Source: Methanocaldococcus jannaschii DSM 2661
GTDB taxonomy: Archaea > AGJL01 > Methanococci > Methanococcales > Methanocaldococcaceae
DNA: 32,000 nucleotides
Reading direction: 5' to 3'
NCBI RefSeq assembly: GCF_000091665.1
Contig: NC_000909.1
Span: 1,342,117 to 1,374,116, forward strand
Both the position numbers and the translations under genes were made by a program. Position 1 is the first letter of the stretch; each line of letters starts with the position of its first letter. Shown piece after piece: positions 1-23,686 of this stretch. The notes under the pieces were generated by a model, which saw only the letters and a program-made list of their open reading frames with translations, was not told the DNA's origin and did no database searches.

Positions 1-1
1 A

Positions 2-1684
2 TCTTCAACAATAGAAAGTATAACTGGATATATTGTAATTAACAACACTGGGACTACAATAAATGATACTTTATACGATGTTTGGGTGGCAGTTAATATA
101 TCCAACAACATAACTGGACCAGAAGTTTATGTAAATGGAACTCCAAAAGGGGTTTTTATTGAGAGTTCAGCTCCTGCATATACAAACTTACCAAATGCAA
201 ACACATACATACACATCCCAATACTACCAAATAACAGCTATGTTATAATTAAATTTGCTATAGATAAATCAATAACTGGAGTTCCATTGATAATCAACGA
301 AACATATAGTGATACTAAAATTCCATCAGAAAGATTATCAAATTGGAGTGTCTATTTAAACATAAGCAGAAATGTTTCAGCACTACCGGCAACAGATACA
401 CCAGTTTCTGTTATTATGACAAAATATCTAAGTAACGACCCAAATAATTATGGAAGTGACACTTGGAATTTCTTAAATATAACAGGTGCTATAGCCAACG
501 AAGGTTCAATAACACTCTGGGATGGTCCTTACTTCTTACCAGGATACAACGATTCATTAACCTGGACAGGAGTCGTAATAAATACTACTAAAAATGCAAC
601 CATTACAATCAACATAACAGGAAACAACACTTACACAAATAGAACAGGAACCTTAATGAAATATGGTTTTGCTGTTATCTTCTTTGAATTCAATGGAACT
701 AAATCAGGAACAAAAATTGAAGGGATTTATGCAACAGGATATGGTGGAGTAAGTGCAACCAAGGAAGGACCATTCTTAAATGCATCAAGCGGTAAGTATG
801 AAATATGGTACGAAAGTGCTAATGTATCAAACAAGGCATCAAGTTACTACTTTAACTTAACTCATGTGACAATATGGGCTGTAAATGGTAGTAATCCAGT
901 AATATTAGACCCATTTAATATAACATTATTAATCCCTAATTCAAAACAGACGTCCTCACCTAATGAAATATTATCTCCAGGAAGCGTTTGGAGTTCAACT
1001 AAATATGCCTTCACATTTGATGGAATTCCAGTTGTCTGGGCAAACTGTACATTTAAGGTAGCAGACGAGAACATAACATTAATAAATAGAAGTATTAATG
1101 AATACTCAACAAAGTACGGAAGTTCCTATGTTGTTGTTGAGGAGATTTATGTTGTGGGTAGTTATTTGATTAAGGTGACTAAGCATATTGTTCCGGATGC
1201 GGATGGGACTTATGATATTTATATAGTTGTGGAGAATATTGGTAGTGTGAAGACTCCTGAGTATGTGTATGTTTATGATTTGATTCCTAAGAACTTCACC
1301 GTCTCAGATGAGTGGGTTAATCAATCAAGTATGTTGATTGCTGAAGGAAATCACACCATTACAACAAATCCAAGGTATAATTTAAGCATGTGGTGGGCGT
1401 TACATGCAATATATCCAGGAGCAGATGGGGACGGTAACTGGAACGACACTGCTGAAATACTTGCAAATAAAACAGTAGTCATACACTACAAACTAAACGG
1501 AACTGGCGAATTCTACCCAAGCGACGCATTTATCGTTGGTATCGACCCTACAAACTCACTACTACCAACAACCTCACCAAAAATAACAACAGTAGCCGGA
1601 ACAGTAGAAAACAACTCAGAACCATTCCTTGCATTATTGACCCTACTTGTAGGGTTGGGAATCATAATAAGAAGGGTAATGTAA
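2..1684 (+). CDS. Surface glycoprotein paralog; its 5' end lies upstream of the window. C-terminal beta-sandwich module, Thr/Pro linker and a single TM anchor.
   Basis: The frame of ORF 86..1684 stays open back to nt 2 (SSTIESITGYIVINNTGTTINDTLYDVWVAVNI). That extension aligns with ...GLTGHIIIENTAPYKEDTLNDVWVAVDI of the next protein, so the listed Met is internal. About 30 N-x-S/T sequons by eye. It ends in the hydrophobic helix LALLTLLVGLGIII followed by RR. Confidence 0.8.
   Translation, partial: SSTIESITGYIVINNTGTTINDTLYDVWVAVNISNNITGPEVYVNGTPKGVFIESSAPAYTNLPNANTYIHIPILPNNSYVIIKFAIDKSITGVPLIINETYSDTKIPSERLSNWSVYLNISRNVSALPATDTPVSVIMTKYLSNDPNNYGSDTWNFLNITGAIANEGSITLWDGPYFLPGYNDSLTWTGVVINTTKNATITINITGNNTYTNRTGTLMKYGFAVIFFEFNGTKSGTKIEGIYATGYGGVSATKEGPFLNASSGKYEIWYESANVSNKASSYYFNLTHVTIWAVNGSNPVILDPFNITLLIPNSKQTSSPNEILSPGSVWSSTKYAFTFDGIPVVWANCTFKVADENITLINRSINEYSTKYGSSYVVVEEIYVVGSYLIKVTKHIVPDADGTYDIYIVVENIGSVKTPEYVYVYDLIPKNFTVSDEWVNQSSMLIAEGNHTITTNPRYNLSMWWALHAIYPGADGDGNWNDTAEILANKTVVIHYKLNGTGEFYPSDAFIVGIDPTNSLLPTTSPKITTVAGTVENNSEPFLALLTLLVGLGIIIRRVM
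134..243 (+). repeat. 110-bp block, 108/110 identical to 2626-2735
   Basis: AATGGAACTCCAAAAGGGGTTTTTATTGAGAGTTC[A/T]GCTCCTGC[A/T]TATACAAACTTACCAAATGCAAACACATACATACACATCCCAATACTACCAAATAACAGCTATGT encodes NGTPKGVFIESSAPAYTNLPNANTYIHIPILPNNSYV in both genes. Confidence 0.9.
1118..1616 (+). repeat. 499-bp block identical to 4156-4654 (C-terminal module of the two paralogous surface proteins)
   Basis: Checked line by line at an offset of 3038 nt with no mismatch seen. Identity starts at GGAAGTTCC and ends at ...GAAAACAACT, after which the two tails diverge completely. Confidence 0.9.
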
Positions 1685-1690
1685 AACTAA

Positions 1691-1717
1691 TTTTCTTTAT
1701 TTTTTATAATTCTTTTT
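1691..1717 (+). terminator. Oligo-T terminator candidate after the first surface-protein gene
   Basis: TTTTCTTTATTTTTTATAATTCTTTTT starts 7 nt after the stop. Confidence 0.4.
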
Positions 1718-1782
1718 CTAAATTCAAATATGATTTTTGACATTAAGTTAATTTTATCGATATTATATGGGTGATGTGGGGC

Positions 1783-4734
1783 ATGCCAAATATAAAATTA
1801 AAATTCATATATTTATGTATTTTACTGTTCGTATTTATGGCATCAATGTTAAACAGTGTTTCTGGATTAAAAACAATATTCTACGATGATTTTGAAAATT
1901 GGAGTGGGTGGTATAACTACAGTAGTGGGGCTGTAGAGCAATCTTCTAATTATGCACATTCAGGAATATATTCCCTTAGAAAGTTTCTAAATGATGACCC
2001 AAATGGTGGATACAAACTAATTGGGAAGGAAATTGGAAGGGATATTGTAATGGAAGGTTGGATTTATAGACCTTTGCCATATGTTAGCGGAAGATGGGAT
2101 AGAATAGGTATTGAGGACGAGAATTTCAACGGATACTCTATAAGAATAGAGCACGACTATAACAAAATTGCAATAGAAACTCGAGAAAATGGTATTGCTG
2201 TAAATACTTTAGTAATAACTAACTGGAATCCTCCAGAAAATCAGTGGTATTATTTTAAGTTTTATATCTACTCAAATGGAACTTTAAGATTAGAAGTTTA
2301 TTATGAGAATGGTTCATTAGGAGCTACTGTCTCAGCAATAGATAACATCTATACTAAGTTCGATAGAGTTGTTGTGCATGGAGGACAAGATTACTATGTT
2401 GATGATTTGAGGATTTCAGATTTATATCCTCCACTAAGGGTAAGATATATTGAAGAGTACAACGCAACTGCTACTGTGGATGGAACAGGAAAAACAAACT
2501 ATTCCTATGGTTTAACGGGACATATCATTATTGAAAATACTGCCCCTTATAAAGAAGATACTTTAAACGATGTGTGGGTAGCAGTGGATATAAAAAATAA
2601 TGCAAGTGGTTTGAGATTAGTTTATAATGGAACTCCAAAAGGGGTTTTTATTGAGAGTTCTGCTCCTGCTTATACAAACTTACCAAATGCAAACACATAC
2701 ATACACATCCCAATACTACCAAATAACAGCTATGTGGAATATGAGTTTGATATCGATGCATCTCAAACCCTACCAATATTAGTAAATGAAACTTACGATG
2801 TTACAAAAATACCAGCAAATAAAATGTCAGAATGGACTGTAAATTTAATTGTATATTTAAACAAAAATCTCGTTCCTAATGGAGAAAATGTCAATGTTAA
2901 TGTTATAAAATATCTAAGTAATGGGCAGTTTTATGATAACTTTGAAAATTGGACTGGTTGGAATCAGTATAAGAACGGGATAGTTCAATGGTCATCTATT
3001 CAATCTCATTCTGGAAATTACTCTTTAGAAAAATATGGGATTTCAACAAGTTTAAACAACGATCCAAATGGAGGGTACAAATTACTTCCAAAAGAAATTG
3101 GAAGGGATGTAGTTATAAGTGGATGGGTATATAGACCGAGCAACTGGGGAGGAGGCCCTATAGACAGGATTGGTTTGGAGGATGAGAATTTTGATGGATA
3201 TTCATTTGAGGTAAATCACTACAGTAATTACATATCAATTGATAGAAGAACTAATGGAAATCCTACAGAAATTAGTCCTGAAGTTTATTGGAATCCTCCA
3301 GAGGATGAATGGTATTACTTCGAACTAAAAATTTATTCAAATGGAACAATAACATTCTCAACTTATTATCAAAATGGTTCCTTAGCCGCAACTGTCTCAA
3401 CAATAGACAATACCTATACAAAGTTTGATAGGGTTGTTATTCATGGAGGTTATGTTTATTATGTTGATGATTTGGAAGTGAATTCAAAAAACTTCGACTT
3501 TTATGGAGATAAAAACTGGAAGTATCTTGAAATAACATCTGCAAATTCAAGTGAAGGAACAGCAGTTTTATTTGATGGGGACTATTTCAAAAAAGATTAC
3601 AATACCTCAAATCTAAATGCAATAAATTGGACAAATATTACCTTAAATTGGAGTAATGATAGTGCAACTTTGGTATTTAATGTATTGGGAAATTATTCAT
3701 ATAGTGAAAGGGATAATATTTTAGCAAAGTATGGATTTGCTAAAATACTATTTAATTACAATGGGACCAATACAAACACATCTATAAAAGGTGTTTATGC
3801 ATCTGGAAGTTATAGTATTTCAACAGATCATGGAACTACGGGAGAAATAAACATTTGGATAGAAAATGTAACATTTAAAAATGATGCAAAATCATATTCC
3901 TTTAATTTAACGAATCTTAATATATGGGCAGTAAATAAATCTGCTTATGAGTTGTATTGGAATCCATTTAACAAATCTATCTGGATAGATGGGAGTAATT
4001 ACACTATAACTCCAAATATTGACATACCTCCAGGAGAAGTATGGAACTCTAAAACCTACAACTTCACATTTAGTGGAGTTCCAATCGTTTGGGCAAACTG
4101 CTCATTTACACTGTCAAAAAAAGATTATATCCTTTTAAATGAAGTAAGTCAAATAGGAAGTTCCTATGTTGTTGTTGAGGAGATTTATGTTGTGGGTAGT
4201 TATTTGATTAAGGTGACTAAGCATATTGTTCCGGATGCGGATGGGACTTATGATATTTATATAGTTGTGGAGAATATTGGTAGTGTGAAGACTCCTGAGT
4301 ATGTGTATGTTTATGATTTGATTCCTAAGAACTTCACCGTCTCAGATGAGTGGGTTAATCAATCAAGTATGTTGATTGCTGAAGGAAATCACACCATTAC
4401 AACAAATCCAAGGTATAATTTAAGCATGTGGTGGGCGTTACATGCAATATATCCAGGAGCAGATGGGGACGGTAACTGGAACGACACTGCTGAAATACTT
4501 GCAAATAAAACAGTAGTCATACACTACAAACTAAACGGAACTGGCGAATTCTACCCAAGCGACGCATTTATCGTTGGTATCGACCCTACAAACTCACTAC
4601 TACCAACAACCTCACCAAAAATAACAACAGTAGCCGGAACAGTAGAAAACAACTTTGAGATATTTTTAATACTGATAAACGTTATCTTTGGATTAGGTAT
4701 ATTAACAAAGAGGAATATAAGGAATAATAAATAA
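1783..4734 (+). CDS. Large secreted, TM-anchored surface glycoprotein with two ConA/LamG-like jelly-roll domains and the same C-terminal module as the upstream paralog
   Basis: ORF 1771..4734. GGGTGAT at 1769-1775 favours ATG 1783 (MPNIKLKFIYLCILLFVFMASMLNSVSG, a signal peptide); GTG 1771 and ATG 1774 are alternatives. An internally duplicated ~185-aa domain is present. The C-terminal 166 aa are identical to the upstream gene. The tail is hydrophobic then basic (IFLILINVIFGLGIL-KRNIRNNK). Confidence 0.85.
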   Translation: MPNIKLKFIYLCILLFVFMASMLNSVSGLKTIFYDDFENWSGWYNYSSGAVEQSSNYAHSGIYSLRKFLNDDPNGGYKLIGKEIGRDIVMEGWIYRPLPYVSGRWDRIGIEDENFNGYSIRIEHDYNKIAIETRENGIAVNTLVITNWNPPENQWYYFKFYIYSNGTLRLEVYYENGSLGATVSAIDNIYTKFDRVVVHGGQDYYVDDLRISDLYPPLRVRYIEEYNATATVDGTGKTNYSYGLTGHIIIENTAPYKEDTLNDVWVAVDIKNNASGLRLVYNGTPKGVFIESSAPAYTNLPNANTYIHIPILPNNSYVEYEFDIDASQTLPILVNETYDVTKIPANKMSEWTVNLIVYLNKNLVPNGENVNVNVIKYLSNGQFYDNFENWTGWNQYKNGIVQWSSIQSHSGNYSLEKYGISTSLNNDPNGGYKLLPKEIGRDVVISGWVYRPSNWGGGPIDRIGLEDENFDGYSFEVNHYSNYISIDRRTNGNPTEISPEVYWNPPEDEWYYFELKIYSNGTITFSTYYQNGSLAATVSTIDNTYTKFDRVVIHGGYVYYVDDLEVNSKNFDFYGDKNWKYLEITSANSSEGTAVLFDGDYFKKDYNTSNLNAINWTNITLNWSNDSATLVFNVLGNYSYSERDNILAKYGFAKILFNYNGTNTNTSIKGVYASGSYSISTDHGTTGEINIWIENVTFKNDAKSYSFNLTNLNIWAVNKSAYELYWNPFNKSIWIDGSNYTITPNIDIPPGEVWNSKTYNFTFSGVPIVWANCSFTLSKKDYILLNEVSQIGSSYVVVEEIYVVGSYLIKVTKHIVPDADGTYDIYIVVENIGSVKTPEYVYVYDLIPKNFTVSDEWVNQSSMLIAEGNHTITTNPRYNLSMWWALHAIYPGADGDGNWNDTAEILANKTVVIHYKLNGTGEFYPSDAFIVGIDPTNSLLPTTSPKITTVAGTVENNFEIFLILINVIFGLGILTKRNIRNNK
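4156..4654 (+). repeat. Second copy of the 499-bp identical block
   Basis: See 1118-1616. Confidence 0.9.
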
Positions 4735-4743
4735 AGTTGGGGG

Positions 4744-5453
4744 ATGATGATGAAGAGATTTGCATTACTCTTTATTTTCCTTGCATTTATAACACCAACT
4801 TTTGCAGATGTTGAGGAAATAACAAACTATAATATGACCGTTGATTTAACAAAAAATCCTGCACATATAACAAATGTTATAACTATTCAAAATCTTGTTA
4901 AGTATCCTCTTGTTCCAGGAATTGGGGAGTTAAGATTACAAAAAGAAGAGTCAAAGAAAATACTGATTATTCCAATACCATTTACAAAAGAAAAAAACCT
5001 GTAAAGATTGAGAATTTAAGGGGTTATTATATAATTGGGGATAAAAAATATCCAATGGATGTAAATGTCTCTTATAAAGATACCTATTCAGTTATAACAT
5101 ATCAAGTATGGGAGCCAATAGATGGTGGAAAAAATATAACTCTAATAATTGAATATGATGCTGATATTGTTGATAATGGAATATTGTTTAAAACTGTCTC
5201 AATTCCTATTGGAGGGGATTTGAATATAAAAAACTTCCATATAAACTTTGTCTCTCCTTATTATCTAACCTACCAAGAACCAGATGGAAATAATTTCCAA
5301 ATCCCTAAAAAAACTTTGCTTATTATAAATGCTGAGTTTTCAATATTGCCATTACCGAAACTTCCAGTTCATGGATATGTGGTGTTTTGGTTAAGCATAT
5401 TGTGTATATTAATAATAATATTTGTCTATACTGAGTTGAGAAGAAAAAAATAA
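4744..5453 (+). pseudogene. Small signal-peptide plus C-terminal-TM surface protein, split into ORFs 4744..5004 and 5055..5453 by a frameshift at an A7 tract
   Basis: The first ORF carries the signal peptide (MMMKRFALLFIFLAFITPTFA). The second carries the TM anchor (VVFWLSILCILIIIFVYT-ELRRKK). The frame of the second ORF is open upstream through 4980-5054. One extra A in the A7 run at 4991-4997 would join them: ...FTKEKKPVKIENLRGYYIIGDKKYPMDVNV... Confidence 0.55.
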
Positions 5454-5510
5454 AGAAAATAAGGAAGATAAGAAGAATAAAAACTAATAATCTCAATAAT
5501 TGTCTAATAT

Positions 5511-5533
5511 TTGTTCTATAAATTTTATATACT
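5511..5533 (+). promoter_or_regulatory. Promoter-region motif shared with 14283-14305 (TTGTTCTATAAATyTTAwATACT), including a TATA-like core
   Basis: TTGTTCTATAAATTTTATATACT lies upstream of the giant gene and TTGTTCTATAAATCTTAAATACT upstream of the next gene; 21/23 positions are identical. Each lies about 30-55 nt before its start codon. Confidence 0.5.
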
Positions 5534-5585
5534 ACCTATACATTACTTTACTTTTGAACAGTGTTAAAAATTTCAATGGGATAAT

Positions 5586-8500: not shown

Positions 8501-11500
8501 ATTTTCAGTCCAACCAAATTATCAGGAAAAGACTGGAAATGTTGGAGAAGAGATATTTTACAATATAACATTATATAACTTTGGAGTTGGAGGAAGATTT
8601 GATATAAATATAACCTACTTAACGAAAGGATGGACAACGAAAATATACAACAACTCCATTTTAATAGCTGAAGATGCCAATGGGGATGGAATCTGGGATT
8701 ATATAAACCCAAATTATGATTTAAACTCAAATAATTTGCCAGATATCTATGTGCCAACTGGAGAGATAAATTTAACTGTCTCAAAGACAATTCCTTCAAC
8801 AGCCCCATTAGGAGAGATTGATACAACTACATTAAAATTTGTTAATATAAATAATCCATCAATATTTGGAAAAACAACATTCCAGACATCAACACCATAT
8901 CCTCCTTCAGTTCAAAAAACTTTCTATTTACATGGAGATACTTTAAGAACTCTAAATACTTCAATACCTACAACAATTAACAACTACACAACAATTAATA
9001 GCAATTCATTAGCTTCATGGATACAATATCCAAGATTCGCAGACAACTTTACAGTTGTAGGAAAAATTCCAATTTTGCTTTATATAAATGACCCAAACGT
9101 TATATTTGGAACTGAAATGCATAAAATTGTTGTTTCGTTAATGGCCACAAATGGAATTGATTCCTTTACTTTAGGAAGTGATGTTGAGTATCTATACTTA
9201 GATGATACTATAAAATCTTACATTTTCAATATAACCTTAGATTCAATAATTACAATACCCAAAAACTACTATTTGGTTTTGAGAGTGGAAAATCAAATAT
9301 CTTCTAACTCAATAAACATCTATCATAATTCAACATATCCATCCAATATAACGCTAAACACTACGACTTATGTTAATGTTTATAACATATTTTCAGATAA
9401 AAACGTTTATCTTCCAAATGAAAATGTTACAATATTTGCAAATATTACAGACCCTATTGGTTCTTACGATATAAGCGGGGCAAATATAACTGTGTATTAT
9501 CCAAACGGTAGTGTATATATCAACTCTTCAATGCTACTACAGGAAATAGATAAAAACTCCCCATCACTTTGGAAGCTCTATAATTACTCATTTAGCCTCC
9601 CAGAGTCAGGAAAATATCTTATTACAATAACTGGAATCGAATCTAATGGTGTAATTTCGAAGAAAAACTATACCATATACTGCGGATATGAAATTCAGGG
9701 CTATGTAAAAGAGGACTTTGGAACCCTTGGAAAAGAAGATAGTGAAGATAAAGGAATTTATGGGGTTAATGTATCTCTACTTGAAGACAGCAATAATGAT
9801 GGTATTCCAGATATTGGAGATACCATAGTAAATTCAACAACAACAGATATTTTTGGTCATTATTCCTTCTTAGTTTATAACTCCTCAAAAACTTACTTTG
9901 TGGTAGTGAATTCAAGAACTGTAGGAACTACAAGAGGTTTAAACCCTCAATATAGCAAAAATGACATCTGGGCTGAAGAAACATATCAAACAGTATATAC
10001 TCCAATAAACTCTTCTCAATGGATTGCCAACGGAAATGCTTCAATATTCCCAGATAAGCTTCTATTAACAACAGATGATTATGGTGAAGCAGGTAGTGTT
10101 TGGTATTACAAGCCGGTTAATCTATCTGAGGATTTGGTTGTTGAGTTTTATGCGTATTTGGGAGACAATCCTGATGGAGCAGATGGTATAACCTTTACCT
10201 TGCAATCGTTGGGAACTAACGAATTAGGTGGAACTGGAGGAGATTTGGGTTATGGTGGAATTTCTCCGAGTGTAGCGGTTGAAGTTGATACTTGGCTCAA
10301 CGATTTTGATGCTCCAGCAACAACCGACCATATTGCAATAGATGTTAACGGCAACATAAACCACACTTACAACTCCTTAACTTACCCAACACCAAACCCT
10401 TACGATTTAGGTAATGTTGAGGATGGAAGAGAACACTTAATAAAAATCGTATGGAATGCAACAACAAAAACACTCCAAGTATATTTCGATGGCAATTTAT
10501 CATTAACATGGAATAAGGATATAACCCAAATTATAGGAAACTCAGCTTACTTCGGATTCACAGGAGGAACGGGAGGAGCAAAAAATCTCCAGTATGTTAA
10601 GCCAATATACGTAAAAAATGGGGATGGGTATATAATAAATCCAACTTATGGAGTAGTTGAGATGTTTGGAGGAAGAGACCCTAATGAAGAAGATAATTGG
10701 GAAGATGGAAAATATGAACACTACTGTTTGATAAATCTAAATTCATATAGTGGGAAAAATATAACATTTGGATTCAGCTTTGATGTAATAACAAATACGA
10801 AATCTACGGGGCAGGGTAGTTTTTCCCAATTTATAAAAAATGCAAATGCAATTTATGGGAAAGATGAGAGTTATTTCAGAATACCAAATATCGACGCAAA
10901 GAATGGAAATCACTACATTTATACAAGTGGAAATAAAATATTAGACAATTTGACTATTGTCAATGGTTCAACTCAGATTAATGGAACCATCATTTTATCA
11001 GGATTACAATGGATAGCTAACGGTAACGCATACATAAATAATTCAAATAATCTAACTTTGATACTAACGCCTGATGACTACAACCAAAAAGGTAGTGTTT
11101 GGTATTACAAGCCGGTTAATCTATCTGAGGATTTGGTTGTTGAGTTTTATGCGTATTTGGGAGACAATCCTGATGGAGCAGATGGTATAACCTTTACCTT
11201 GCAATCGTTGGGGACTAACGAATTAGGTGGAACTGGAGGAGATTTGGGTTATGGTGGAATTTCTCCGAGTGTAGCGGTGGAGGTTGATACTTGGCTTAAC
11301 GATTTTGACAGCCCAGCAACAACCGACCATATTGCAATAGATGTTGATGGGAACTTAAATCACACTTACAACTCCTTAACTTACTCAACACCAAACCCAT
11401 ACGATTTAGGTAATGTTGAGGATGGAAGAGAACACTTAATAAAAATCGTATGGAATGCAACAACAAAAACACTCCAAGTATATTTCGATGGCAATTTAGC

Positions 11501-14270
11501 ATTAACATGGAATAAAGACATAACCCAAATTATAGGAAACTCAACTTATTTCGGATTCACAGGAGGAACAGGAGGAGCAAAAAACCTACAATACGTTAAG
11601 CCAACATATGTGAAAAATGGGGATAATGTTTTAAATCTCGAAGAAATATCTCCAAATCCAATTATTGACAATGTGGGGGCTGATACATACATTGGAAATA
11701 TATTCTTTGAAAATGTCAGTGTTGGAATATTAGGAAATGAAACTGGGCTAAATAATTTAACATTAAAGAGTTGTGGAATTTATGGAAAAATATTAAATGC
11801 AGGGGTTAAGTTAGTTGATTATGATTGGAGTTTGCAGAATTATCCATTGTATATTGACAATTTAACAATAAACGCCTCTGGAGGATATGGAATTTCAATG
11901 TTGAACAAAATATGGGCTATGTTGTATAACTCTCAAATATCTTTAAAAAACGGTGTAGGGATTTATTGGGCAAACTGGGCTGGTGGTTTTGGAAACATAA
12001 CAATCTATAATATAACTATAAGCTCATGTAATCAAGGATTGGTTTTATATAAAGATGGAAATGGAATAAAACTAATAAACTCTCAGATTAAGAATTCCGT
12101 TTATGAGGGAGTGTATTCAAAGAACTCAACTTTAGAAATACTTAACTCTTCAATAATTAATAACTCTATTGGAATCTATGCAAATATATCAAGCATATTG
12201 GTGAATAATTCCCTTATATATAAAAATAGATATGAAGGTTTATTATTAGAGAATTCATCCTCCTCAATATTGAATTCAAATATAATGAACAATAGCATAG
12301 GAATATATTTAAAAGAAAACTACATCTCAAAAATTCAAAAATCGAATATTTCATATAATGCCTATGGAATTGAAATAGTTAATTCATCTAACGTATATAT
12401 AAATTCATCAAATATATTTAATGCAAGCACAGATGGAATTGCAATATTTAATGGAGAAAATGTAAGTGTTGAAAACTCTCTATTGTATAATAACAATTAC
12501 TCAATACTCTCTTATGGTAATTTATCAAACCTCAGTGTGTTGAATTCATTATTAAGAGATTCAATAAACAACAGTATTGATATTGAAGTCCCTTCTGATG
12601 GATTTTTGAATAATTTAAAACTTTATAACTCAAGTGTATTAAACAGCGGAAGCTATGGGTTGTTTATCTATTCGTTGGGAAGTGCTTCAAATGTAAATAT
12701 ATCCAAATCACTAATAAACGGCTCCTACAAAGATGGAATTTACATCTATGGAGTAAATGCTATAAACATAGTTAATAATAACATAACCAATAACGGTTTG
12801 ATTGGAGGAGACCCAGCAGGAAGTGGAATAAAAATCAGTGGAAACTATACCAAGGGAGTTTTAATTTTAAATAACAATATATCTCACAACTTGGGTAATG
12901 GTATTTCTTTAGAAGGGTTGTGGAGCAGAACATTATGTGATGTTAAAGTTGAAAACAACATAATTTCAAATAATGGTATTGAAGAAAATAGCGGTAATGG
13001 AATATACATAGGAGGAAGAGTTGAGAATGTCTCTATATTTAATAACACGATTCAATACAGCGATGCTCAGGCAATTTTAATTCAAGAGGCAAATGGATGG
13101 AATTCTTGGGATTGGATTGGAACAAATATATCCATTATAAACAACACAATTCAATACAATGGATTAACTGTCACAATAGGAAATATAACCGCAGGAATAA
13201 CTGTTGGGGCTTATGGAGTTTATAATCAAGATAATGGATATATAATAATAGAGGGTAATAAAATAATAAACAACAATCTCTGTCCAAATCCAACTTATGG
13301 TGGAAAAGTTGGAGGAATTGAGGTTTATGGGTTAAATGAGAGTTGGATTAGCTTAGAATTTAATATCTCAAAGAATATCATAGCAAACAACTCTGCCTAT
13401 GGAATTTTAATAGGGGCAAGCAAAGACATCAACATAATTAATAACACAATCTTCAACAATGAAAAGGGAATTACAATTCCAAACTGGGATTTTGTTCCTT
13501 ACAATATAATAATCTCCAAAAACTCAATTTACAACAACTCTCTACTCGGAATTGACTTAGATGATGATAATGTAACTCTAAATGATGGGCTATTGAACTA
13601 TAATGAAGCAAATCATGGTATTGACTATCCAATAATTACCTATGCTGAGTTAAACGGAGATAACTTAACAGTTAAAGGATACATTGGAAATGGAACTGGC
13701 AGTTCAAACTTTGCAAATGCGGTAGTTGAGATTTATTTAGTTAAAAATTTAAGTGGCGGAGATAATTTAATAGGAAATAATATTTCTTCAGATGGCACTG
13801 TATTGAATGATACCTATGGAGAAAGTTGGATTTATTTGGGAAGTTTGATTGCTGATAGTAATGGATTTTTCAGTGGAACAATAAATGTTTCTGGAAAAGG
13901 GGTTGGAGATGAATCTTTACTAACTGCAACAGCAACGATAAAAGGTATTGGAACATCAGAATTTGGAAGAAACTATCTCTTAATTAAAAAGTTCTTCAAC
14001 ATAACTGGAACTATAGTAATGCTTCCAAACGGCTACAACATAACAATAAAATCATATAATACAACAAGAGATGTTTATGTTTATTGGTATAAGCCAGATA
14101 ATATTGAAGTAATCAATATTTCAGGGGATTATGATGAAAATGGAACCTATGGAAACACCTACTGGTTTAAATTTAATGTGATAAATGCAAATGAGACAAT
14201 GAACATATCAATAACAACCAATATAACAACAGTTGAGGGACTTATTATCGGTATTGACCCAAAAAAATAA
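5586..14270 (+). CDS. Giant (2894 aa) secreted multidomain adhesin-like protein: signal peptide, tandem ~80-aa repeats, Cna-B/SdrD-like domain, two L-type lectin domains, long parallel beta-helix, no TM anchor
   Basis: Single uninterrupted ORF with an N-terminal hydrophobic signal (ISIFVFTILLLSNVSLG). Lectin signature: GADGITF...GGDLGYGG...AVEVDTW...FGFTGGTGG, present twice. Repeated NNSIGIY / N-x-I-x-x-N beta-helix turns span aa ~2030-2660. Very high N-x-S/T density. Confidence 0.9.
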   Translation: MKSYLKNISIFVFTILLLSNVSLGLNVSTTNNNSNFELNNSLIYKLNNSLTNTTNNSGSIIINNTTDTNKEKNECYLNITINGYRVIVKTNGEVFGFANKTPLKFIKIGDNEYIISPIVLNVPIEIYSKFNDKILHRTVILNYTKPEKEKKETNIKKEELHYLNVSFNNFKLIVKTNGKPYAKYLDLNIKVKTKKIKKHEYLVYPLILNKTIIIYAKFKNETLNRTIFLNYSIEENTTTNKTVILKNVYFPSEKIVIKTNFKPHTAYIVTPNNKIIHLKVHKKGKFYILSTKLKKNVILGNYSVVVDGIKKTFAVDYYKINAKLIDNRFIVGNVSYYVKEPKFITCIVDKKEINISLINGAFEIPLDYLIPKLNISKPEKIKKIILICGNAKEKIKVKFKNKEEIKKLISYDPVNKEIIIKLEGSEKEIKKLLKRYEKRKKYKISKIVKIYNYSIVEIKLKADKEILKDYNLPENILNTTEIVKKISSNKIRVEVNNKVDGVWYRFSCKIPKGYRVKEIVGDDGRVIRNNISINRLTGEVIGEVRWYIENNTLYFYDDPIYGYDISLIPPAPNHSIAVELSYNGQDYGGCGQISAIVFPYNKEDDETTVATYDHAGRTGDYNYANNIDAYAGSKIAIKYTSGALTRQYGVLGTAGSLGWWTYYYLSEINRTDIPLNTVPNGILESVIITDMYAPWNNNELNITQKVIIRGNNKWFATIYYIKNPTTKTYTNLKFFQGMDWNFRGSWWGDDAYYNSIDDVVYGYDSNAPVGDIQYGGFKSNIPSYEHDVNLYWSTWSDIRYDNLNNDSSYEGDAGTALAWTKDSLKPGEIWVVPIIWGLGYNYTDMMNEINMGLSQLYDTGVKSIDYPNNGDSFNPNIGPIIYINSTIALYGLVDAYNLNVSINITQINGTYIYTNSTLINLSVPYEEEKLVSFPVNISNMPYGAYNITIKTNLPNDQNTSNDEKSIIIYITSFSVQPNYQEKTGNVGEEIFYNITLYNFGVGGRFDINITYLTKGWTTKIYNNSILIAEDANGDGIWDYINPNYDLNSNNLPDIYVPTGEINLTVSKTIPSTAPLGEIDTTTLKFVNINNPSIFGKTTFQTSTPYPPSVQKTFYLHGDTLRTLNTSIPTTINNYTTINSNSLASWIQYPRFADNFTVVGKIPILLYINDPNVIFGTEMHKIVVSLMATNGIDSFTLGSDVEYLYLDDTIKSYIFNITLDSIITIPKNYYLVLRVENQISSNSINIYHNSTYPSNITLNTTTYVNVYNIFSDKNVYLPNENVTIFANITDPIGSYDISGANITVYYPNGSVYINSSMLLQEIDKNSPSLWKLYNYSFSLPESGKYLITITGIESNGVISKKNYTIYCGYEIQGYVKEDFGTLGKEDSEDKGIYGVNVSLLEDSNNDGIPDIGDTIVNSTTTDIFGHYSFLVYNSSKTYFVVVNSRTVGTTRGLNPQYSKNDIWAEETYQTVYTPINSSQWIANGNASIFPDKLLLTTDDYGEAGSVWYYKPVNLSEDLVVEFYAYLGDNPDGADGITFTLQSLGTNELGGTGGDLGYGGISPSVAVEVDTWLNDFDAPATTDHIAIDVNGNINHTYNSLTYPTPNPYDLGNVEDGREHLIKIVWNATTKTLQVYFDGNLSLTWNKDITQIIGNSAYFGFTGGTGGAKNLQYVKPIYVKNGDGYIINPTYGVVEMFGGRDPNEEDNWEDGKYEHYCLINLNSYSGKNITFGFSFDVITNTKSTGQGSFSQFIKNANAIYGKDESYFRIPNIDAKNGNHYIYTSGNKILDNLTIVNGSTQINGTIILSGLQWIANGNAYINNSNNLTLILTPDDYNQKGSVWYYKPVNLSEDLVVEFYAYLGDNPDGADGITFTLQSLGTNELGGTGGDLGYGGISPSVAVEVDTWLNDFDSPATTDHIAIDVDGNLNHTYNSLTYSTPNPYDLGNVEDGREHLIKIVWNATTKTLQVYFDGNLALTWNKDITQIIGNSTYFGFTGGTGGAKNLQYVKPTYVKNGDNVLNLEEISPNPIIDNVGADTYIGNIFFENVSVGILGNETGLNNLTLKSCGIYGKILNAGVKLVDYDWSLQNYPLYIDNLTINASGGYGISMLNKIWAMLYNSQISLKNGVGIYWANWAGGFGNITIYNITISSCNQGLVLYKDGNGIKLINSQIKNSVYEGVYSKNSTLEILNSSIINNSIGIYANISSILVNNSLIYKNRYEGLLLENSSSSILNSNIMNNSIGIYLKENYISKIQKSNISYNAYGIEIVNSSNVYINSSNIFNASTDGIAIFNGENVSVENSLLYNNNYSILSYGNLSNLSVLNSLLRDSINNSIDIEVPSDGFLNNLKLYNSSVLNSGSYGLFIYSLGSASNVNISKSLINGSYKDGIYIYGVNAINIVNNNITNNGLIGGDPAGSGIKISGNYTKGVLILNNNISHNLGNGISLEGLWSRTLCDVKVENNIISNNGIEENSGNGIYIGGRVENVSIFNNTIQYSDAQAILIQEANGWNSWDWIGTNISIINNTIQYNGLTVTIGNITAGITVGAYGVYNQDNGYIIIEGNKIINNNLCPNPTYGGKVGGIEVYGLNESWISLEFNISKNIIANNSAYGILIGASKDINIINNTIFNNEKGITIPNWDFVPYNIIISKNSIYNNSLLGIDLDDDNVTLNDGLLNYNEANHGIDYPIITYAELNGDNLTVKGYIGNGTGSSNFANAVVEIYLVKNLSGGDNLIGNNISSDGTVLNDTYGESWIYLGSLIADSNGFFSGTINVSGKGVGDESLLTATATIKGIGTSEFGRNYLLIKKFFNITGTIVMLPNGYNITIKSYNTTRDVYVYWYKPDNIEVINISGDYDENGTYGNTYWFKFNVINANETMNISITTNITTVEGLIIGIDPKK
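5808..6290 (+). repeat. Two tandem ~80-aa protein repeats near the N-terminus of the giant protein (5808-6062 and 6063-6290)
   Basis: CYLNITINGYRVIVKTNGEVFGF...EYIISPIVLNVPIEIYSKFNDKILHRTVILNYT aligns with HYLNVSFNNFKLIVKTNGKPYAK...EYLVYPLILNKTIIIYAKFKNETLNRTIFLNYS. The similarity is at protein level only. Confidence 0.7.
10017..10625 (+). repeat. L-type (legume-like) lectin domain, copy 1, inside the giant ORF
   Basis: SQWIANGNA...GSVWYYKPVNLSEDLVVEFYAYLGDNPDGADGITFTLQS...GGDLGYGGISPSVAVEVDTWLNDFD...DHIAIDVNG...EDGREHLIKIVWNATTKTLQVYFDG...AYFGFTGGTGGAKNLQYV. Highly similar at DNA level to 11007-11624. Confidence 0.85.
11007..11624 (+). repeat. L-type lectin domain, copy 2, inside the giant ORF
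   Basis: Same domain about 999 nt downstream of copy 1. Nt 11090-11212 are identical to 10091-10213 by eye. The rest has scattered substitutions, many of them synonymous. Confidence 0.85.
11670..13565 (+). other. Right-handed parallel beta-helix region (PbH1/NosD-like repeats) of the giant protein
   Basis: Dozens of ~22-25-aa turns such as NSxIxNNSIGIYxxxSS, NNITNNGL, ISHNLGNGISLEG and IISNNGIEENSGNGIYIGG. They end in IYNNSLLGIDLDDDNVTLND, the typical exit of such helices. Confidence 0.75.
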
Positions 14271-14282
14271 TTCGTCAAAAAA

Positions 14283-14305
14283 TTGTTCTATAAATCTTAA
14301 ATACT
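14283..14305 (+). promoter_or_regulatory. Second copy of the shared promoter-region motif
   Basis: See 5511-5533. It sits in the 56-65-nt gap after the giant ORF, which has no T-run terminator. Confidence 0.5.
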
Positions 14306-14335
14306 TTAAAAAATAAAACCTAATAATTGGGGACC

Positions 14336-15787: not shown

Positions 15788-15802
15788 ATAGAGGTGAAGT
15801 AT

Positions 15803-16054
15803 GTGGTAGAAGAAAACAATAAAGAAATATTAATAAAATTGAAGAAAATTAGAAAAATGCAAAGGAGAAGAACGCTCATTGGTTCATTTTTAGTCTCAAC
15901 ATCCATAATAATTTCTGAAATTTCAGTGTTTATATTTGTTGGTGTTTTTAATATAGACATAAGCTTTGGATTGTTATTATTGTTTATTTCGTTAATTTTT
16001 TTATCGTTAGGGCTCTATTTAATCATGTATCCTCCACCTATAGTCATAGATTAG
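15803..16054 (+). CDS. Small two-TM membrane protein
   Basis: ORF 15794..16054. GAGGTGA at 15791-15797 contains GTG 15794, so the in-frame GTG 15803 (5 nt after the SD) is the more plausible start. A basic stretch KKIRKMQRRR is followed by two hydrophobic helices. It sits 6 nt after the upstream gene and 7 nt before the downstream gene. Confidence 0.55.
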   Translation: MVEENNKEILIKLKKIRKMQRRRTLIGSFLVSTSIIISEISVFIFVGVFNIDISFGLLLLFISLIFLSLGLYLIMYPPPIVID

Positions 16055-23622: not shown

Positions 23623-23686
23623 CTTCCCACCTCTACTACTTCCCTCAAGTATCCCACCATGGGAGACCGTCATCGGGAGTAATAAT

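What the first reader, a model, noticed from the sequence alone, without database searches (positions are those of the whole stretch)
1..14270. Accessory cell-surface island: three very large, sequon-rich, lectin-bearing proteins in one orientation
About 14 kb is devoted to secreted proteins with carbohydrate-binding-type folds:
- Two ConA/LamG-like domains in the 987-aa protein.
- Two L-type lectin domains, a parallel beta-helix and a Cna-B/SdrD-like domain in the 2894-aa protein.
- DxDxDG-like Ca-binding motifs throughout (PGADGDGNWND, NGDGIWD, NNDGIPDIGD).

Two of the proteins have C-terminal membrane anchors; the giant one has none.

This is the architecture of bacterial giant adhesins, but in a hyperthermophilic methanogen-like genome. 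None of these proteins has, to my knowledge, an assigned function. Cell-cell, cell-mineral or syntrophic-partner adhesion is a reasonable hypothesis.
Basis: partly seen in the sequence, partly recalled or inferred. Interest (0 to 1): 0.68.

Follow-up and report, generated by a model that had tools for sequence, protein, structure and literature searches.

The report
Conserved archaeal lectin-bearing surface gene cluster
The region is the Methanocaldococcus jannaschii genes MJ1393 to MJ1398, a cell-surface gene cluster shared by several archaeal orders, whose giant secreted glycoprotein has gained two mannose-binding lectin domains in this genus and probably acts as a sugar-directed adhesin held on the cell by membrane-anchored partner proteins.

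Summary
The window is M. jannaschii DSM 2661, genes MJ1393 to MJ1398.

**Confirmed**
- The ORFs, signal peptides and C-terminal anchors are as described, and the giant has no anchor.
- N-glycosylation sequons are 2.4 to 3.4 times enriched.
- MJ1396 has two L-type lectin domains and a beta-helix. The SdrD-like hit is below threshold.
- The two MJ1394 modules miss every Pfam model but are predicted to have a ConA/CBM66-like fold.

**Corrections**
- MJ1393 is only 608 aa and has no lectin-type domain.
- Ca-type motifs number three or four, not "throughout".
- Lectin domain 1 is already solved (PDB 7ELV, and 7EXO with mannose).
- This is not a strain-specific island.

**New**
- The genes form a conserved neighbourhood: an AF2028-type anchor protein, an MJ1395-like anchor, the giant, an MJ1397-like transmembrane protein, a small membrane protein and a membrane-bound wHTH. 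It occurs in Methanococcales, Archaeoglobales, Ca. Pyrohabitans, Thermoproteota MAGs and Methanocellaceae.
- MJ1396 is a conserved scaffold with a roughly 1430-aa "head" inserted. Other lineages carry other heads.
- The lectin repeats and the MJ1393/94 C-termini evolve in concert, with a perfect 499-bp tract.
- Two poly-A tracts, in MJ1395 and MJ1396, vary in length between independent assemblies.
- A 23-nt promoter box is shared within the cluster.

The function, a glycan-directed adhesin complex, is inferred and not shown.

The parts
2..1684 (+). MJ1393, the last 560 of 608 aa. It is an AF2028-type surface protein with domains B, C and D, then a linker and a C-terminal TM anchor. It has no lectin-type module.
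   Evidence: Precomputed Pfam PF27409 AF2028_3rd and PF27408 AF2028_C. Hydrophobic tail at residues 541-560 of the visible part.
1118..1616 (+). A 499-bp tract identical to 4156-4654 in MJ1394. It encodes the D domain and linker up to the anchor motif. This is a gene-conversion tract.
   Evidence: The same within-genome homogenisation is seen in M. vulcanius and M. aeolicus.
1771..4734 (+). MJ1394 (987 aa): signal peptide, A1, B, A2, C, D, linker and TM anchor. This is the MJ1393 layout with two extra A modules.
1879..2490 (+). A1 module (residues 37-240). Predicted ConA-like jelly-roll that resembles CBM66 and galectins.
   Evidence: AF2 pLDDT about 80-92. Foldseek against CBM66 (4azz, 4b1l) gives TM 0.72-0.74 and prob 1.0. 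No Pfam hit. 421 family representatives.
2929..3564 (+). A2 module (residues 387-598), 50-60% identical to A1. It sits between domains B and C.
4156..4654 (+). The copy in MJ1394 of the 499-bp identical tract.
4750..5453 (+). MJ1395. The real gene encodes 234 aa (signal peptide, beta-rich ectodomain, C-terminal TM). In this sequence it is split into 84-aa and 132-aa ORFs by a frameshift.
4991..4997 (+). Poly-A tract 1, A7 here (out of frame). It is A8 (intact gene) in 4 independent assemblies, A7 in 7, and A9 in 1.
5511..5533 (+). Promoter box TTGTTCTATAAATTTTATATACT, which includes a TATA element, 53 nt upstream of the MJ1396 ATG.
5586..14270 (+). MJ1396 (2894 aa), the giant secreted protein. 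It has a signal peptide and no anchor.
6031..6038 (+). Poly-A tract 2, around codon 150 of MJ1396. It is A8 here (in frame) and A9 (frameshift) in two assemblies.
7026..9695 (+). Conserved scaffold core (residues 481-1370). It is all-beta, a chain of MG/Ig/CARDB-like sandwiches plus a highly conserved domain of about 270 aa with unknown function. It contains the Ca-type motif DANGDGIWD.
9696..9995 (+). SdrD-B/Cna-B-like domain (residues 1371-1470), which starts the inserted head. It contains DSNNDGIPDIGD.
   Evidence: (26.7 bits against a cut-off of 29.7)
9996..10625 (+). L-type lectin domain 1 (residues 1471-1680). Residues 1471-1679 are the PDB 7ELV / 7EXO construct (7EXO is the mannose complex).
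11007..11624 (+). L-type lectin domain 2 (residues 1808-2013), about 92% identical to domain 1.
11988..13625 (+). Right-handed parallel beta-helix (about residues 2135-2680), with weak NosD-like hits.
13977..14270 (+). C-terminal domain (residues 2798-2894), conserved in the whole giant family and homologous to the D domain of MJ1393/94. It ends in GIDPKK.
   Evidence: hhalign prob 94.5%, E 7.7e-8
14283..14305 (+). Second copy of the promoter box, TTGTTCTATAAATCTTAAATACT, upstream of MJ1397.
14327..15787 (+). MJ1397 (486 aa): signal peptide, ectodomain carrying all 14 sequons, charged stalk, TM at 363-385, and a cytoplasmic domain of about 100 aa that may be PIN-like.
15794..16054 (+). An 86-aa ORF encoding a small hydrophobic membrane protein. 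It is conserved at this position in other Methanococcales clusters.
16062..17237 (+). MJ1398: N-terminal signal or anchor, extracytoplasmic domain with 7 sequons, TM at 195-219, and two cytoplasmic winged-helix domains. It is a membrane-bound regulator.

Best explanation
MJ1393 to MJ1398 encode one conserved archaeal cell-surface assembly.

**The giant.** MJ1396 is exported by a Sec-type signal peptide and heavily N-glycosylated. It is built as a long stalk of beta-sandwich domains. Having no anchor of its own, it is probably held on the cell through its conserved C-terminal domain. That domain is homologous to the membrane-proximal D domain of the anchored MJ1393/94 proteins. The type-I membrane proteins MJ1395 and MJ1397 probably take part as well.

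**The head.** Between the conserved scaffold and that C-terminal domain sits an exchangeable head. In Methanocaldococcus the head is an SdrD-like domain, two mannose-binding L-type lectin domains and a beta-helix. MJ1394 has likewise gained two ConA-like modules. The assembly therefore most likely binds glycans on other cells, on extracellular polymer or on the cell's own envelope, so it would be a lectin-type adhesin complex.

**Regulation.** Expression appears to be coordinated by a cluster-specific promoter box, and MJ1398 is the obvious candidate regulator. Slippage in two coding poly-A tracts may switch genes on and off.

**Shown:** the gene content, domains, homologies, conservation of the neighbourhood, the solved lectin structure with mannose, the concerted evolution and the tract polymorphism.

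**Inferred:** glycosylation, tethering through the D-like domains, adhesion as the function, regulation by MJ1398 and phase variation.
For: - **Identity of the genes:**
- **Extracellular glycoprotein signature:** signal peptides and anchors. Sequon enrichment, shared by the archaeal homologues but not by the bacterial ones.
- **Lectins:** Pfam E 1.2e-99. PDB 7ELV/7EXO matches residues 1471-1679, 208 of 209 residues identical. 7EXO is listed with mannose for UniProt Q58791.
- **MJ1394 modules:** ConA-like fold.
- **Exchangeable head:** homologues in Methanothermococcus and Archaeoglobus cover MJ1396 residues 1-1370 and 2798-2894 but lack 1371-2797. Other lineages carry an MJ1394-type A module at that place (P0034, L008, L015) or a beta-helix alone.
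- **Conserved neighbourhood:** MJ1393-like, MJ1395-like, giant and MJ1397-like genes lie together in Methanococcales, Archaeoglobales, Ca. Pyrohabitans, Thermoproteota and Methanocellaceae.
- **Shared terminal domain:** hhalign prob 94.5%.
- **Homogenised D domain:** the D domains of the two anchored paralogues are homogenised in three species, with a 499-bp perfect tract here.
- **Shared promoter box:** present twice in the window against 0 expected by chance. Its core also lies upstream of cluster genes in four other genomes.
- **Poly-A polymorphism:** length differences in DNA that is otherwise 100% identical.
Against: - There is no expression, localisation, glycosylation or binding-partner data for the full proteins. 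No paper in the searched library names these genes.
- Only one monosaccharide complex of one isolated domain is known, and the natural ligand is unknown.
- N-glycans described for Methanococcales are, as far as I know, not mannose-rich. A self-glycan ligand is therefore not obvious.
- The tethering model rests on domain homology and gene neighbourhood only.
- The beta-helix could be catalytic.
- The most conserved domain of the scaffold, about residues 590-850, has no recognisable fold match. It could carry the real function.
- Poly-A differences could in part be assembly errors.
Confidence: 0.5

Rival explanations
1. The giant is an extracellular polysaccharide-processing enzyme. The beta-helix would be the catalytic module (a lyase, hydrolase or epimerase, as in pectate lyases and phage depolymerases). 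The lectins and ConA-like modules would target it to the substrate, and the cluster would remodel the cell's own exopolymer.
For: The beta-helix is strong and long. It is the most widespread element of the 'long' giants, also in Thermoproteota, Pyrohabitans and Methanotorris. The layout of CBM-like modules plus a beta-helix is typical of such enzymes (established knowledge). The A module is closest in fold to CBM66.
Against: Many family members have no beta-helix at all (Methanothermococcus and Archaeoglobus, 1300-1650 aa) yet keep the partner genes. No catalytic family model was hit, only the generic Beta_helix model and a sub-threshold to borderline NosD hit. M. jannaschii is an autotroph with no known polysaccharide use (established knowledge).
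Confidence: 0.17
2. The cluster builds a structural envelope layer or scaffold, an outer canopy on the S-layer, rather than an adhesin. The lectin domains would bind the cell's own S-layer glycans simply to fix the giant to the surface.
For: The giant has no anchor. The scaffold and its anchored partners are conserved across phyla whatever the head. The proteins are all-beta, heavily sequon-rich chains typical of envelope proteins.
Against: The distribution within Methanococcales looks patchy. In one search the named isolates with MJ1393/94 homologues were M. jannaschii, FS406-22, M. vulcanius, sp. 16A, M. aeolicus and Methanotorris igneus, which argues against an essential wall layer. Frameshift alleles of MJ1395 and MJ1396 occur in sequenced cultures. 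Variable heads suggest changing external ligands.
Confidence: 0.15
3. One reading: a strain-specific, horizontally acquired accessory island of three bacterial-type giant lectin adhesins.
For: The nearest relatives of the lectin domain outside Methanocaldococcus are bacterial, at 47% identity or less (Bacteroidota, OmpA-fused and PEP-CTERM proteins). The flanking genes differ between species. Scaffold homologues exist in bacterial candidate phyla.
Against: The gene order is conserved across genera and orders. GC content is ordinary for the window. Only the head modules look acquired. No RTX, T1SS or LPXTG features were found. The bacterial homologues have different partner genes.
Confidence: 0.08
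4. The giant is an alpha-2-macroglobulin / complement-like protease trap on the cell surface.
For: The best Foldseek matches of the core model are C5, C3, A2M, A2ML1 and CD109 (E down to 1e-12). There are weak MG2 hits.
Against: TM-scores are only 0.1-0.17, so the match is to generic MG/Ig strings. The model has almost no helices, so there is no thioester domain. The GCGQ at residues 589-592 is not conserved in homologues. Viral-library matches are generic FN3/Ig/DUF11 strings.
Confidence: 0.03

Closest known systems
Legume (L-type) lectin domains, Pfam PF18483; PDB 7ELV / 7EXO
   Same: Both MJ1396 lectin repeats match the family model far above threshold. Repeat 1 is itself the crystallised construct, and one entry holds mannose.
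   Different: Here the domains are duplicated inside a 2894-aa archaeal surface protein. The second is inserted next to or within a beta-helix. The two are kept about 92% identical by gene conversion. The biological ligand is unknown.
Bacterial giant modular adhesins (RTX adhesins such as LapA, MpIBP and SiiE; Gram-positive SdrD/Cna MSCRAMMs)
   Same: They share a very long chain of beta-sandwich extender domains, a few Ca-type motifs, and ligand-binding (including sugar-binding) modules grouped near one end. There is also an SdrD-B-like domain.
   Different: MJ1396 has a Sec-type signal peptide rather than a T1SS signal. It has no RTX nonapeptides, LPXTG or outer-membrane retention module. 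It is very rich in sequons, and it has dedicated archaeal partner genes (MJ1393/94, 95, 97, 98).
CBM66 and other ConA-like lectin/glucanase modules (galectins, laminin G)
   Same: The predicted fold of the two MJ1394 A modules matches (TM 0.72-0.74 to CBM66).
   Different: Sequence identity is only 14-15%, and no Pfam or NCBIfam model is hit. Binding activity is untested. The A module is a separate, unannotated family of at least 421 representative proteins.
Alpha-2-macroglobulin / complement MG-domain proteins
   Same: The scaffold core is a string of MG/Ig-like sandwiches.
   Different: There is no thioester domain, no conserved CxEQ motif and no global superposition.
Archaeosortase / exosortase substrates (PGF-CTERM, PEF-CTERM, PEP-CTERM)
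   Same: The tails of MJ1393/94 and their homologues are tripartite. A conserved motif N-[YFLM]-E-x-[LFMV] is followed by a hydrophobic helix and then basic residues.
   Different: No CTERM model reaches its threshold. The motif differs from all named ones. Only one or two proteins per cluster carry it. Whether it is processed is unknown.
Homopolymer-tract contingency (phase-variable) surface genes of bacteria
   Same: Coding poly-A tracts in two adjacent surface genes differ in length by one base between independent data sets, switching the reading frame.
   Different: Switching within a clone has not been shown. Such loci are hardly documented in archaea (my own knowledge).

Membership tests
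L-type (legume) lectin domain, PF18483 | Match to the family HMM above the gathering score | tested here: met
   333 bits against a cut-off of 78.3, two stretches
L-type (legume) lectin domain, PF18483 | Legume-lectin fold shown experimentally | tested here: met
   PDB 7ELV/7EXO 'legume lectin' aligns to residues 1471-1679 with 208 of 209 residues identical
L-type (legume) lectin domain, PF18483 | Carbohydrate binding | tested here: met
   7EXO is listed as 'Putative L-type lectin, Q58791, ligand Man' in PMC12424684. This covers repeat 1 and a monosaccharide only. Repeat 2 is inferred from its 92% identity.
Right-handed parallel beta-helix, PF13229 | Match to the family HMM above the gathering score, with several coils | tested here: met
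   125.9 bits against 25.9, five stretches. The pieces cover about residues 2135-2680.
Right-handed parallel beta-helix, PF13229 | Catalytic residues of a lyase or hydrolase subfamily | not tested
   No catalytic subfamily model was hit. NosD scores 22-24.7 bits against a cut-off of 23.6.
SdrD B-like / Cna-B domain, PF17210 | Match to the family HMM above the gathering score | tested here: inconclusive
   19.8 bits in the whole protein and 26.7 bits for the isolated segment, against a cut-off of 29.7
Laminin G / ConA-like Pfam families (PF13385, DUF2341) | HMM match over the MJ1394 A modules | tested here: not met
   No family at E up to 1 for A1 or A2. In homologues the Laminin_G_3 and DUF2341 hits lie outside the A module.
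ConA-like lectin/glucanase fold (superfamily level) | Jelly-roll beta-sandwich that superposes on known members | tested here: met
   AF2 model pLDDT is 80-94 in the A modules. Foldseek matches CBM66 at TM 0.72-0.74, and also galectins and laminin LG, all with prob 1.0. This rests on a predicted structure only.
RTX / T1SS giant adhesins | C-terminal RTX nonapeptide repeats and a T1SS signal | tested here: not met
   No RTX family appears among the Pfam hits. The protein starts with a Sec-type signal peptide and ends in a beta-sandwich domain.
Sortase-anchored MSCRAMMs | LPXTG motif followed by a TM segment and a basic tail | tested here: not met
   MJ1396 has no C-terminal hydrophobic segment. 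Of the four MJ1393/94-family tails scanned, the two M. jannaschii tails hit nothing, and only one homologue's tail (P0028, a metagenome sequence) reached 12.4 bits against the LPXTG cut-off of 15.9.
Archaeosortase / exosortase substrates | Match to a named CTERM sorting-signal model | tested here: not met
   The best scores are JDVT-CTERM 14.6 against 27 and Heimdall-CTERM 14 against 24, in one homologue only.
Archaeosortase / exosortase substrates | A cognate sortase gene in the genome | not testable with these tools
   Only the 32-kb window can be read.
Alpha-2-macroglobulin / TEP | Thioester domain with a conserved CxEQ motif | tested here: not met
   The model is all-beta. C590 is not conserved. 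Global TM is 0.1-0.17.
Phase-variable contingency locus | A homopolymer tract inside the ORF whose length differs between isolates and changes the frame | tested here: met
   Tract 1 occurs as A7, A8 and A9. Tract 2 occurs as A8 and A9. This is across 12 independent assemblies that are otherwise 100% identical.
Phase-variable contingency locus | Reversible switching within a clonal population, with a change in phenotype | not testable with these tools
   Needs deep sequencing of clonal cultures.
Known anti-phage defence systems (PADLOC) | Match of any cluster protein to a defence model | tested here: not met
   Only generic winged-helix similarity of MJ1398 to Csa3/CasR.

The most novel reading that the evidence does not exclude
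MJ1393 to MJ1398 are the M. jannaschii copy of a previously undescribed archaeal surface apparatus that spans several phyla. It would consist of a giant glycoprotein stalk with swappable ligand-binding heads, docked through AF2028_C-type domains onto a set of type-I membrane proteins. It would be wired to the cytoplasm by a transmembrane protein with a PIN-like tail and by a membrane-bound winged-helix regulator that recognises a cluster-specific promoter box. It would be switched on and off by poly-A slippage. That would make it the first contingency-type adhesin locus in a hyperthermophilic archaeon.
Probability: 0.3. Interest if true: 0.8.

Novelty: new variant of a known kind. Interest (0 to 1): 0.55.

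Why it matters
How archaea recognise and stick to surfaces and to each other is poorly understood, apart from pili and archaella. This work does four things.
- It turns a set of 'hypothetical proteins' from the first sequenced archaeon into a defined, conserved gene module with testable parts.
- It gives the already crystallised M. jannaschii lectin domain a biological context, as the head of a giant anchored surface protein.
- It shows that carbohydrate-binding modules were grafted repeatedly onto the same scaffold.
- It points to two mechanisms seldom documented in archaea: concerted evolution of surface-protein domains, and homopolymer-tract on/off variation.

M. jannaschii is, to my knowledge, now genetically tractable, so the predictions can be tested directly.

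Tried and rejected
- **Alpha-2-macroglobulin reading of the core.** Rejected: no thioester domain, a non-conserved Cys and TM of only 0.1-0.17.
- **Known C-terminal sorting signals for the MJ1393/94 tails.** All below threshold.
- **Ribophorin I relationship of MJ1395.** Only 3 of 18 family members hit, with best E 0.008, and the profile found nothing in PDB sequences. Left as a weak lead.
- **PIN identity of the MJ1397 cytoplasmic domain.** The support is weak: VapC6 at E 0.03, and one member hits Pfam PIN at 4.6e-5. Kept only as 'possibly'.
- **Profile searches of the scaffold and of the AF2028 family against PDB sequences.** Nothing found.
- **Viral fold library.** Only generic FN3/Ig/DUF11 strings.
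- **PADLOC.** No defence system.
- **Bacterial sigma-70 promoter and terminator scan.** No more hits than in shuffles, and irrelevant for an archaeon.
- **Literature searches.** No paper in the held library for MJ1393-98, AF2028, or archaeal or jannaschii lectins, except a benchmark table that lists 7EXO.
- **Species-genome scan.** It did not return M. jannaschii, M. vulcanius or M. aeolicus, although they carry the genes. Absences in that scan therefore cannot be read as gene absence.
Full report
**What the sequence is**

Exact look-up identifies the window as Methanocaldococcus jannaschii DSM 2661. The ORFs in the flagged region are as follows.

| ORF | Coordinates | Size | Note |
|---|---|---|---|
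| MJ1393 | 2..1684 | 608 aa in full | Runs off the left end, so 48 residues are missing |
| MJ1394 | 1771..4734 | 987 aa | |
| MJ1395 | annotated 5055..5453 | 132 aa | See below |
| MJ1396 | 5586..14270 | 2894 aa | |
| MJ1397 | 14327..15787 | 486 aa | |

All are on the + strand. GC content over the region is 23-36% and does not stand out from the rest of the window.

**Checking the observation**

- *Sequons.* Enrichment is real and strong: 34, 37 and 133 N-x-S/T sites against 10.1, 15.4 and 53.3 expected from shuffles. The cytoplasmic genes of the window have 0-1.2 per 100 aa.
- *Signals and anchors.* All five proteins start with a hydrophobic signal-like segment. MJ1393, MJ1394 and MJ1395 end with a hydrophobic helix plus basic residues. 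MJ1396 has no second hydrophobic segment.
- *MJ1396 domains.* Pfam gives two L-type lectin domains (E 1.2e-99) and a right-handed beta-helix (E 1.4e-36, about residues 2135-2680). The SdrD_B match is below threshold.
- *Other proteins.* MJ1393, 94, 95 and 97 hit nothing in Pfam or NCBIfam.
- *Ca-type motifs.* The strict form occurs twice in MJ1396, and a variant sits in the domain shared by MJ1393/94. These sites are conserved in the families, but they are not 'throughout'.

**What was already known**

Residues 1471-1679 of MJ1396 match the chain of PDB entries 7ELV and 7EXO ('legume lectin'), with 208 of 209 residues identical. A benchmark paper lists 7EXO as 'Putative L-type lectin, Q58791' with mannose bound (PMC12424684). 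One domain therefore has a solved structure and a demonstrated sugar ligand. I found no paper in the held library on the whole protein or its neighbours.

**MJ1393 and MJ1394**

Tiled BLAST shows the layout of MJ1394. It runs signal peptide, A1 (37-240), B (247-386), A2 (387-598), C, D (789-945), linker and anchor. MJ1393 is B-C-D-linker-anchor without the A modules.

An AlphaFold2 model built on nine family members has pLDDT 80-94 in A1 and A2. Foldseek matches these modules to CBM66 (TM 0.72-0.74), galectins, laminin G domains and Cip1, all with probability 1.0. The ConA-like fold is therefore supported, though only from a predicted structure.

The A module is not covered by the Pfam copy. 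In homologues, the Laminin_G_3 and DUF2341 hits lie elsewhere in the protein. A full HMMER scan of 1.84 billion representatives finds 421 proteins with this module, 108 of them at E up to 1e-30. Many are short proteins, and some are giants of 2400-6800 aa.

**MJ1396 is a conserved scaffold with an inserted head**

Residues 481-1470 have relatives at 48-60% identity in Methanothermococcus (1444 aa) and Archaeoglobus (about 1600 aa). Those proteins align to MJ1396 residues 1-1370 and again to 2798-2894. They lack 1371-2797, which holds the SdrD-like domain, both lectins and the beta-helix.

Other lineages have something different at that place.
- An MJ1394-type A module: P0034, Methanothermococcus MAG L008 and Archaeoglobus L015.
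- A beta-helix alone: Methanotorris, Ca. Pyrohabitans and a Thermoproteota MAG.

The AlphaFold2 model of residues 481-1470 has mean pLDDT 80 and pLDDT about 90 over residues 590-1370. It is all-beta, a chain of sandwich domains. Its best matches are complement C3/C5 and alpha-2-macroglobulins, but at TM 0.1-0.17. This reflects generic strings of MG/Ig-like domains. There is no thioester domain, and Cys590 is not conserved.

The most conserved part, about residues 590-850, holds many invariant polar residues and remains unidentified.

The scaffold family also occurs in bacterial candidate phyla at 35-39% identity. There it has different neighbours (PorV-like, T9SS-type and MerR-type genes) and no sequon enrichment.

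**A conserved gene neighbourhood, not a strain island**

The same order of genes recurs in other Methanococcales.

| Genome | Gene products in order (aa) |
|---|---|
| M. vulcanius | 608, 980, 243, 2895, 501 |
| M. aeolicus | 612, 980, 243, 2064, 512, 82, 385 (HTH) |
| Methanotorris igneus | 619, 246, 385 (HTH), 1716, 506, 79 |
| Methanothermococcus | 255, 1444, then 117 and 527 on the other strand |

tblastn of the window proteins against 53 fetched loci finds MJ1393-like, MJ1395-like and giant genes side by side in several further groups.
- Archaeoglobales (L025 and L046; L009 shows only MJ1395-like and MJ1397-like genes next to the giant), Ca. Pyrohabitans (L010) and a Methanobacteriota MAG (L012), where an MJ1397-like gene is also present.
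- Thermoproteota MAGs (all three genes in L017 and L018; MJ1395-like and giant only in L016 and L024) and Methanocellaceae (L028, L045, L048).

In all the archaeal loci the cluster genes carry 1.3-5.1 sequons per 100 aa, against 0.04-1.1 in their neighbours.

- *MJ1395.* It is really a 234-aa protein with a signal peptide, a beta-rich ectodomain and a C-terminal anchor. Here it is split by a frameshift.
- *An 86-aa ORF at 15794..16054.* It encodes a small membrane protein found at the same place in other clusters.
- *MJ1398.* It has an extracytoplasmic domain with seven sequons, a membrane helix at 195-219 and two cytoplasmic winged-helix domains. It is part of the cluster in M. aeolicus, Methanotorris and MAG L007.
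- *MJ1397.* All 14 sequons lie in the ectodomain. After it come a charged stalk, a membrane helix and a cytoplasmic domain of about 100 aa. Support for a PIN-like fold in that domain is weak.

**How the giant may be held**

The last roughly 100 residues of the giant family and the D domain of the MJ1393/94 family are homologous. hhalign gives probability 94.5% and E 7.7e-8, and both end in (I/V)G(I/V)DP. In MJ1393/94 a linker and an anchor follow that domain. The giant stops there.

The anchor region of the MJ1393 family carries a conserved N-[YFLM]-E-x-[LFMV] motif just before the helix, in all orders sampled. It matches no named sorting signal. Docking of the giant through these homologous domains is my inference and has not been shown.

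**Concerted evolution**

- *Lectin repeats.* The two repeats are 92% identical within each of M. jannaschii, M. vulcanius and MAG L007. Between species they are only 78-88% identical. Their first roughly 25 residues keep a position-specific signature, so the duplication is old and the repeats are being homogenised.
- *MJ1393/94 C-termini.* The last 200 residues of the two paralogues are 91-97% identical within each of three genomes but 59-77% identical between genomes. The preceding 220 residues follow orthology, with paralogues at about 40% and orthologues at about 65%.
- *In this window.* This shows as a perfect 499-bp tract, 1118-1616 equal to 4156-4654, with abrupt divergence on both sides.
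- *Missing MJ1394.* Three metagenome contigs join MJ1393 directly to MJ1395 across this repeat. That is either a deletion of MJ1394 or an assembly collapse.

**Poly-A tracts**

Twelve independent assemblies are 100% identical to the window apart from two tracts.
- The tract in MJ1395 (4991-4997) is A7 here and in seven assemblies, A8 in four (intact gene), and A9 in one.
- The tract at codon 150 of MJ1396 (6031-6038) is A8 in most assemblies that cover it and A9, out of frame, in two.

This is the pattern of slipped-strand on/off variation. Switching within a clone has not been shown, and some assembly error cannot be excluded.

**Shared promoter box**

The 23-nt sequence TTGTTCTATAAATNTTAWATACT occurs upstream of MJ1396 (5511-5533) and of MJ1397 (14283-14305) and nowhere else in the 32 kb. 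None is expected by chance.

Its core lies at three kinds of site.
- Upstream of the giant gene in M. vulcanius, two MAGs and M. aeolicus.
- Upstream of the first cluster gene in M. vulcanius, M. aeolicus and Methanotorris.
- Upstream of the regulator gene in Methanotorris.

MJ1394 and MJ1395 are 9-15 nt apart (depending on which of three tandem ATGs starts MJ1395), with a GGGGG ribosome-binding-type run between them, so they are probably co-transcribed.

**Origin of the head**

Outside Methanocaldococcus, the nearest relatives of the lectin domain are bacterial at 47% identity or less. They include Bacteroidota proteins, OmpA fusions and PEP-CTERM proteins. This fits acquisition of the head module by transfer onto an old archaeal scaffold.

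**Verdict**

The best-supported explanation is a conserved archaeal surface assembly. Its giant stalk protein carries lineage-specific glycan-binding heads, which here are mannose-binding lectins. Adhesion is the likely function.

The rivals cannot be excluded without experiments. They are an exopolymer-processing enzyme, a structural canopy and a macroglobulin-like trap.

The lectin domain itself is known. The cluster, its modular logic, the concerted evolution, the tract variation and the promoter box appear, to my knowledge, to be undescribed.

Noticed in passing
window 4991-4997 and 6031-6038: Two coding poly-A tracts, in MJ1395 and at codon ~150 of MJ1396, differ by one base between independent assemblies of DNA that is otherwise identical. 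This switches the reading frames. The reference MJ1395 annotation (132 aa) is the tail of a frameshifted 234-aa gene.
   Followed up: yes
window 15794-16054 (+): An 86-aa ORF for a small hydrophobic membrane protein lies between MJ1397 and MJ1398. Homologues of 79-117 aa occupy the same position in other Methanococcales clusters.
   Followed up: partly
window 5511-5533 and 14283-14305: A shared 23-nt box containing a TATA element lies upstream of MJ1396 and MJ1397. Its core is conserved upstream of cluster genes in M. vulcanius, M. aeolicus, Methanotorris and two MAGs. It is a candidate operator for MJ1398.
   Followed up: partly
window 16062-17237 (MJ1398): The annotated 'HTH-type regulator' has an N-terminal signal or anchor, a sequon-rich extracytoplasmic domain and a membrane helix ahead of its two winged-helix domains. 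It is therefore a membrane-bound one-component regulator.
   Followed up: partly
L058, L062, L065 (metagenome contigs matching window 517-1616 joined to 4150 onward): These contigs pass from MJ1393 through the 499-bp repeat straight into MJ1395 and skip MJ1394. This is either a recombinational deletion variant or an assembly collapse over the repeat.
   Followed up: no
window 15365-15784 (MJ1397 cytoplasmic tail) and homologues (alignment A3): The cytoplasmic domain of about 100 aa gives weak PIN-like signals. The profile hits VapC6 (2LCQ) at E 0.03, and one member hits Pfam PIN at 4.6e-5. A membrane-tethered PIN-like domain would be unusual.
   Followed up: partly
MJ1395 family (alignment A4): Three of 18 members give weak Ribophorin_I (OST1) hits over the ectodomain, with best E 0.008. 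The topology is the same as ribophorin I. This is not significant, but it is curious next to heavily glycosylated proteins.
   Followed up: partly
window 7353-8135 (MJ1396 residues ~590-850): This is the most conserved part of the whole giant family, with many invariant polar residues. It is a beta-rich domain of about 270 aa and has no sequence or fold match I could isolate.
   Followed up: partly
L026-L044 and other bacterial loci: Scaffold homologues of 2800-3150 aa occur in FCPU426, Goldbacteria, Firestonebacteria, Spirochaetia and others. They sit next to a PorV-like/TPR protein, a protein with a T9SS-type C-terminal domain, a MerR-type regulator and a ComFB-like protein. This looks like a separate, bacterial version of the system.
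   Followed up: partly
window 21196-22236 (-) and 22549-23673 (-): Two adjacent paralogous ORFs of 346 and 374 aa are 34% identical, Ser/Thr-rich (about 17%) and have no Pfam match.
   Followed up: no
window 8482-8826 (-): A 114-aa antisense ORF lies inside MJ1396. It is almost certainly spurious.
   Followed up: no
L004 (M. aeolicus) 1-7276: In M. aeolicus the cluster lies directly downstream of a type I CRISPR-Cas operon. The flanks differ in every species examined, so the cluster moves or the genomes rearrange around it.
   Followed up: no
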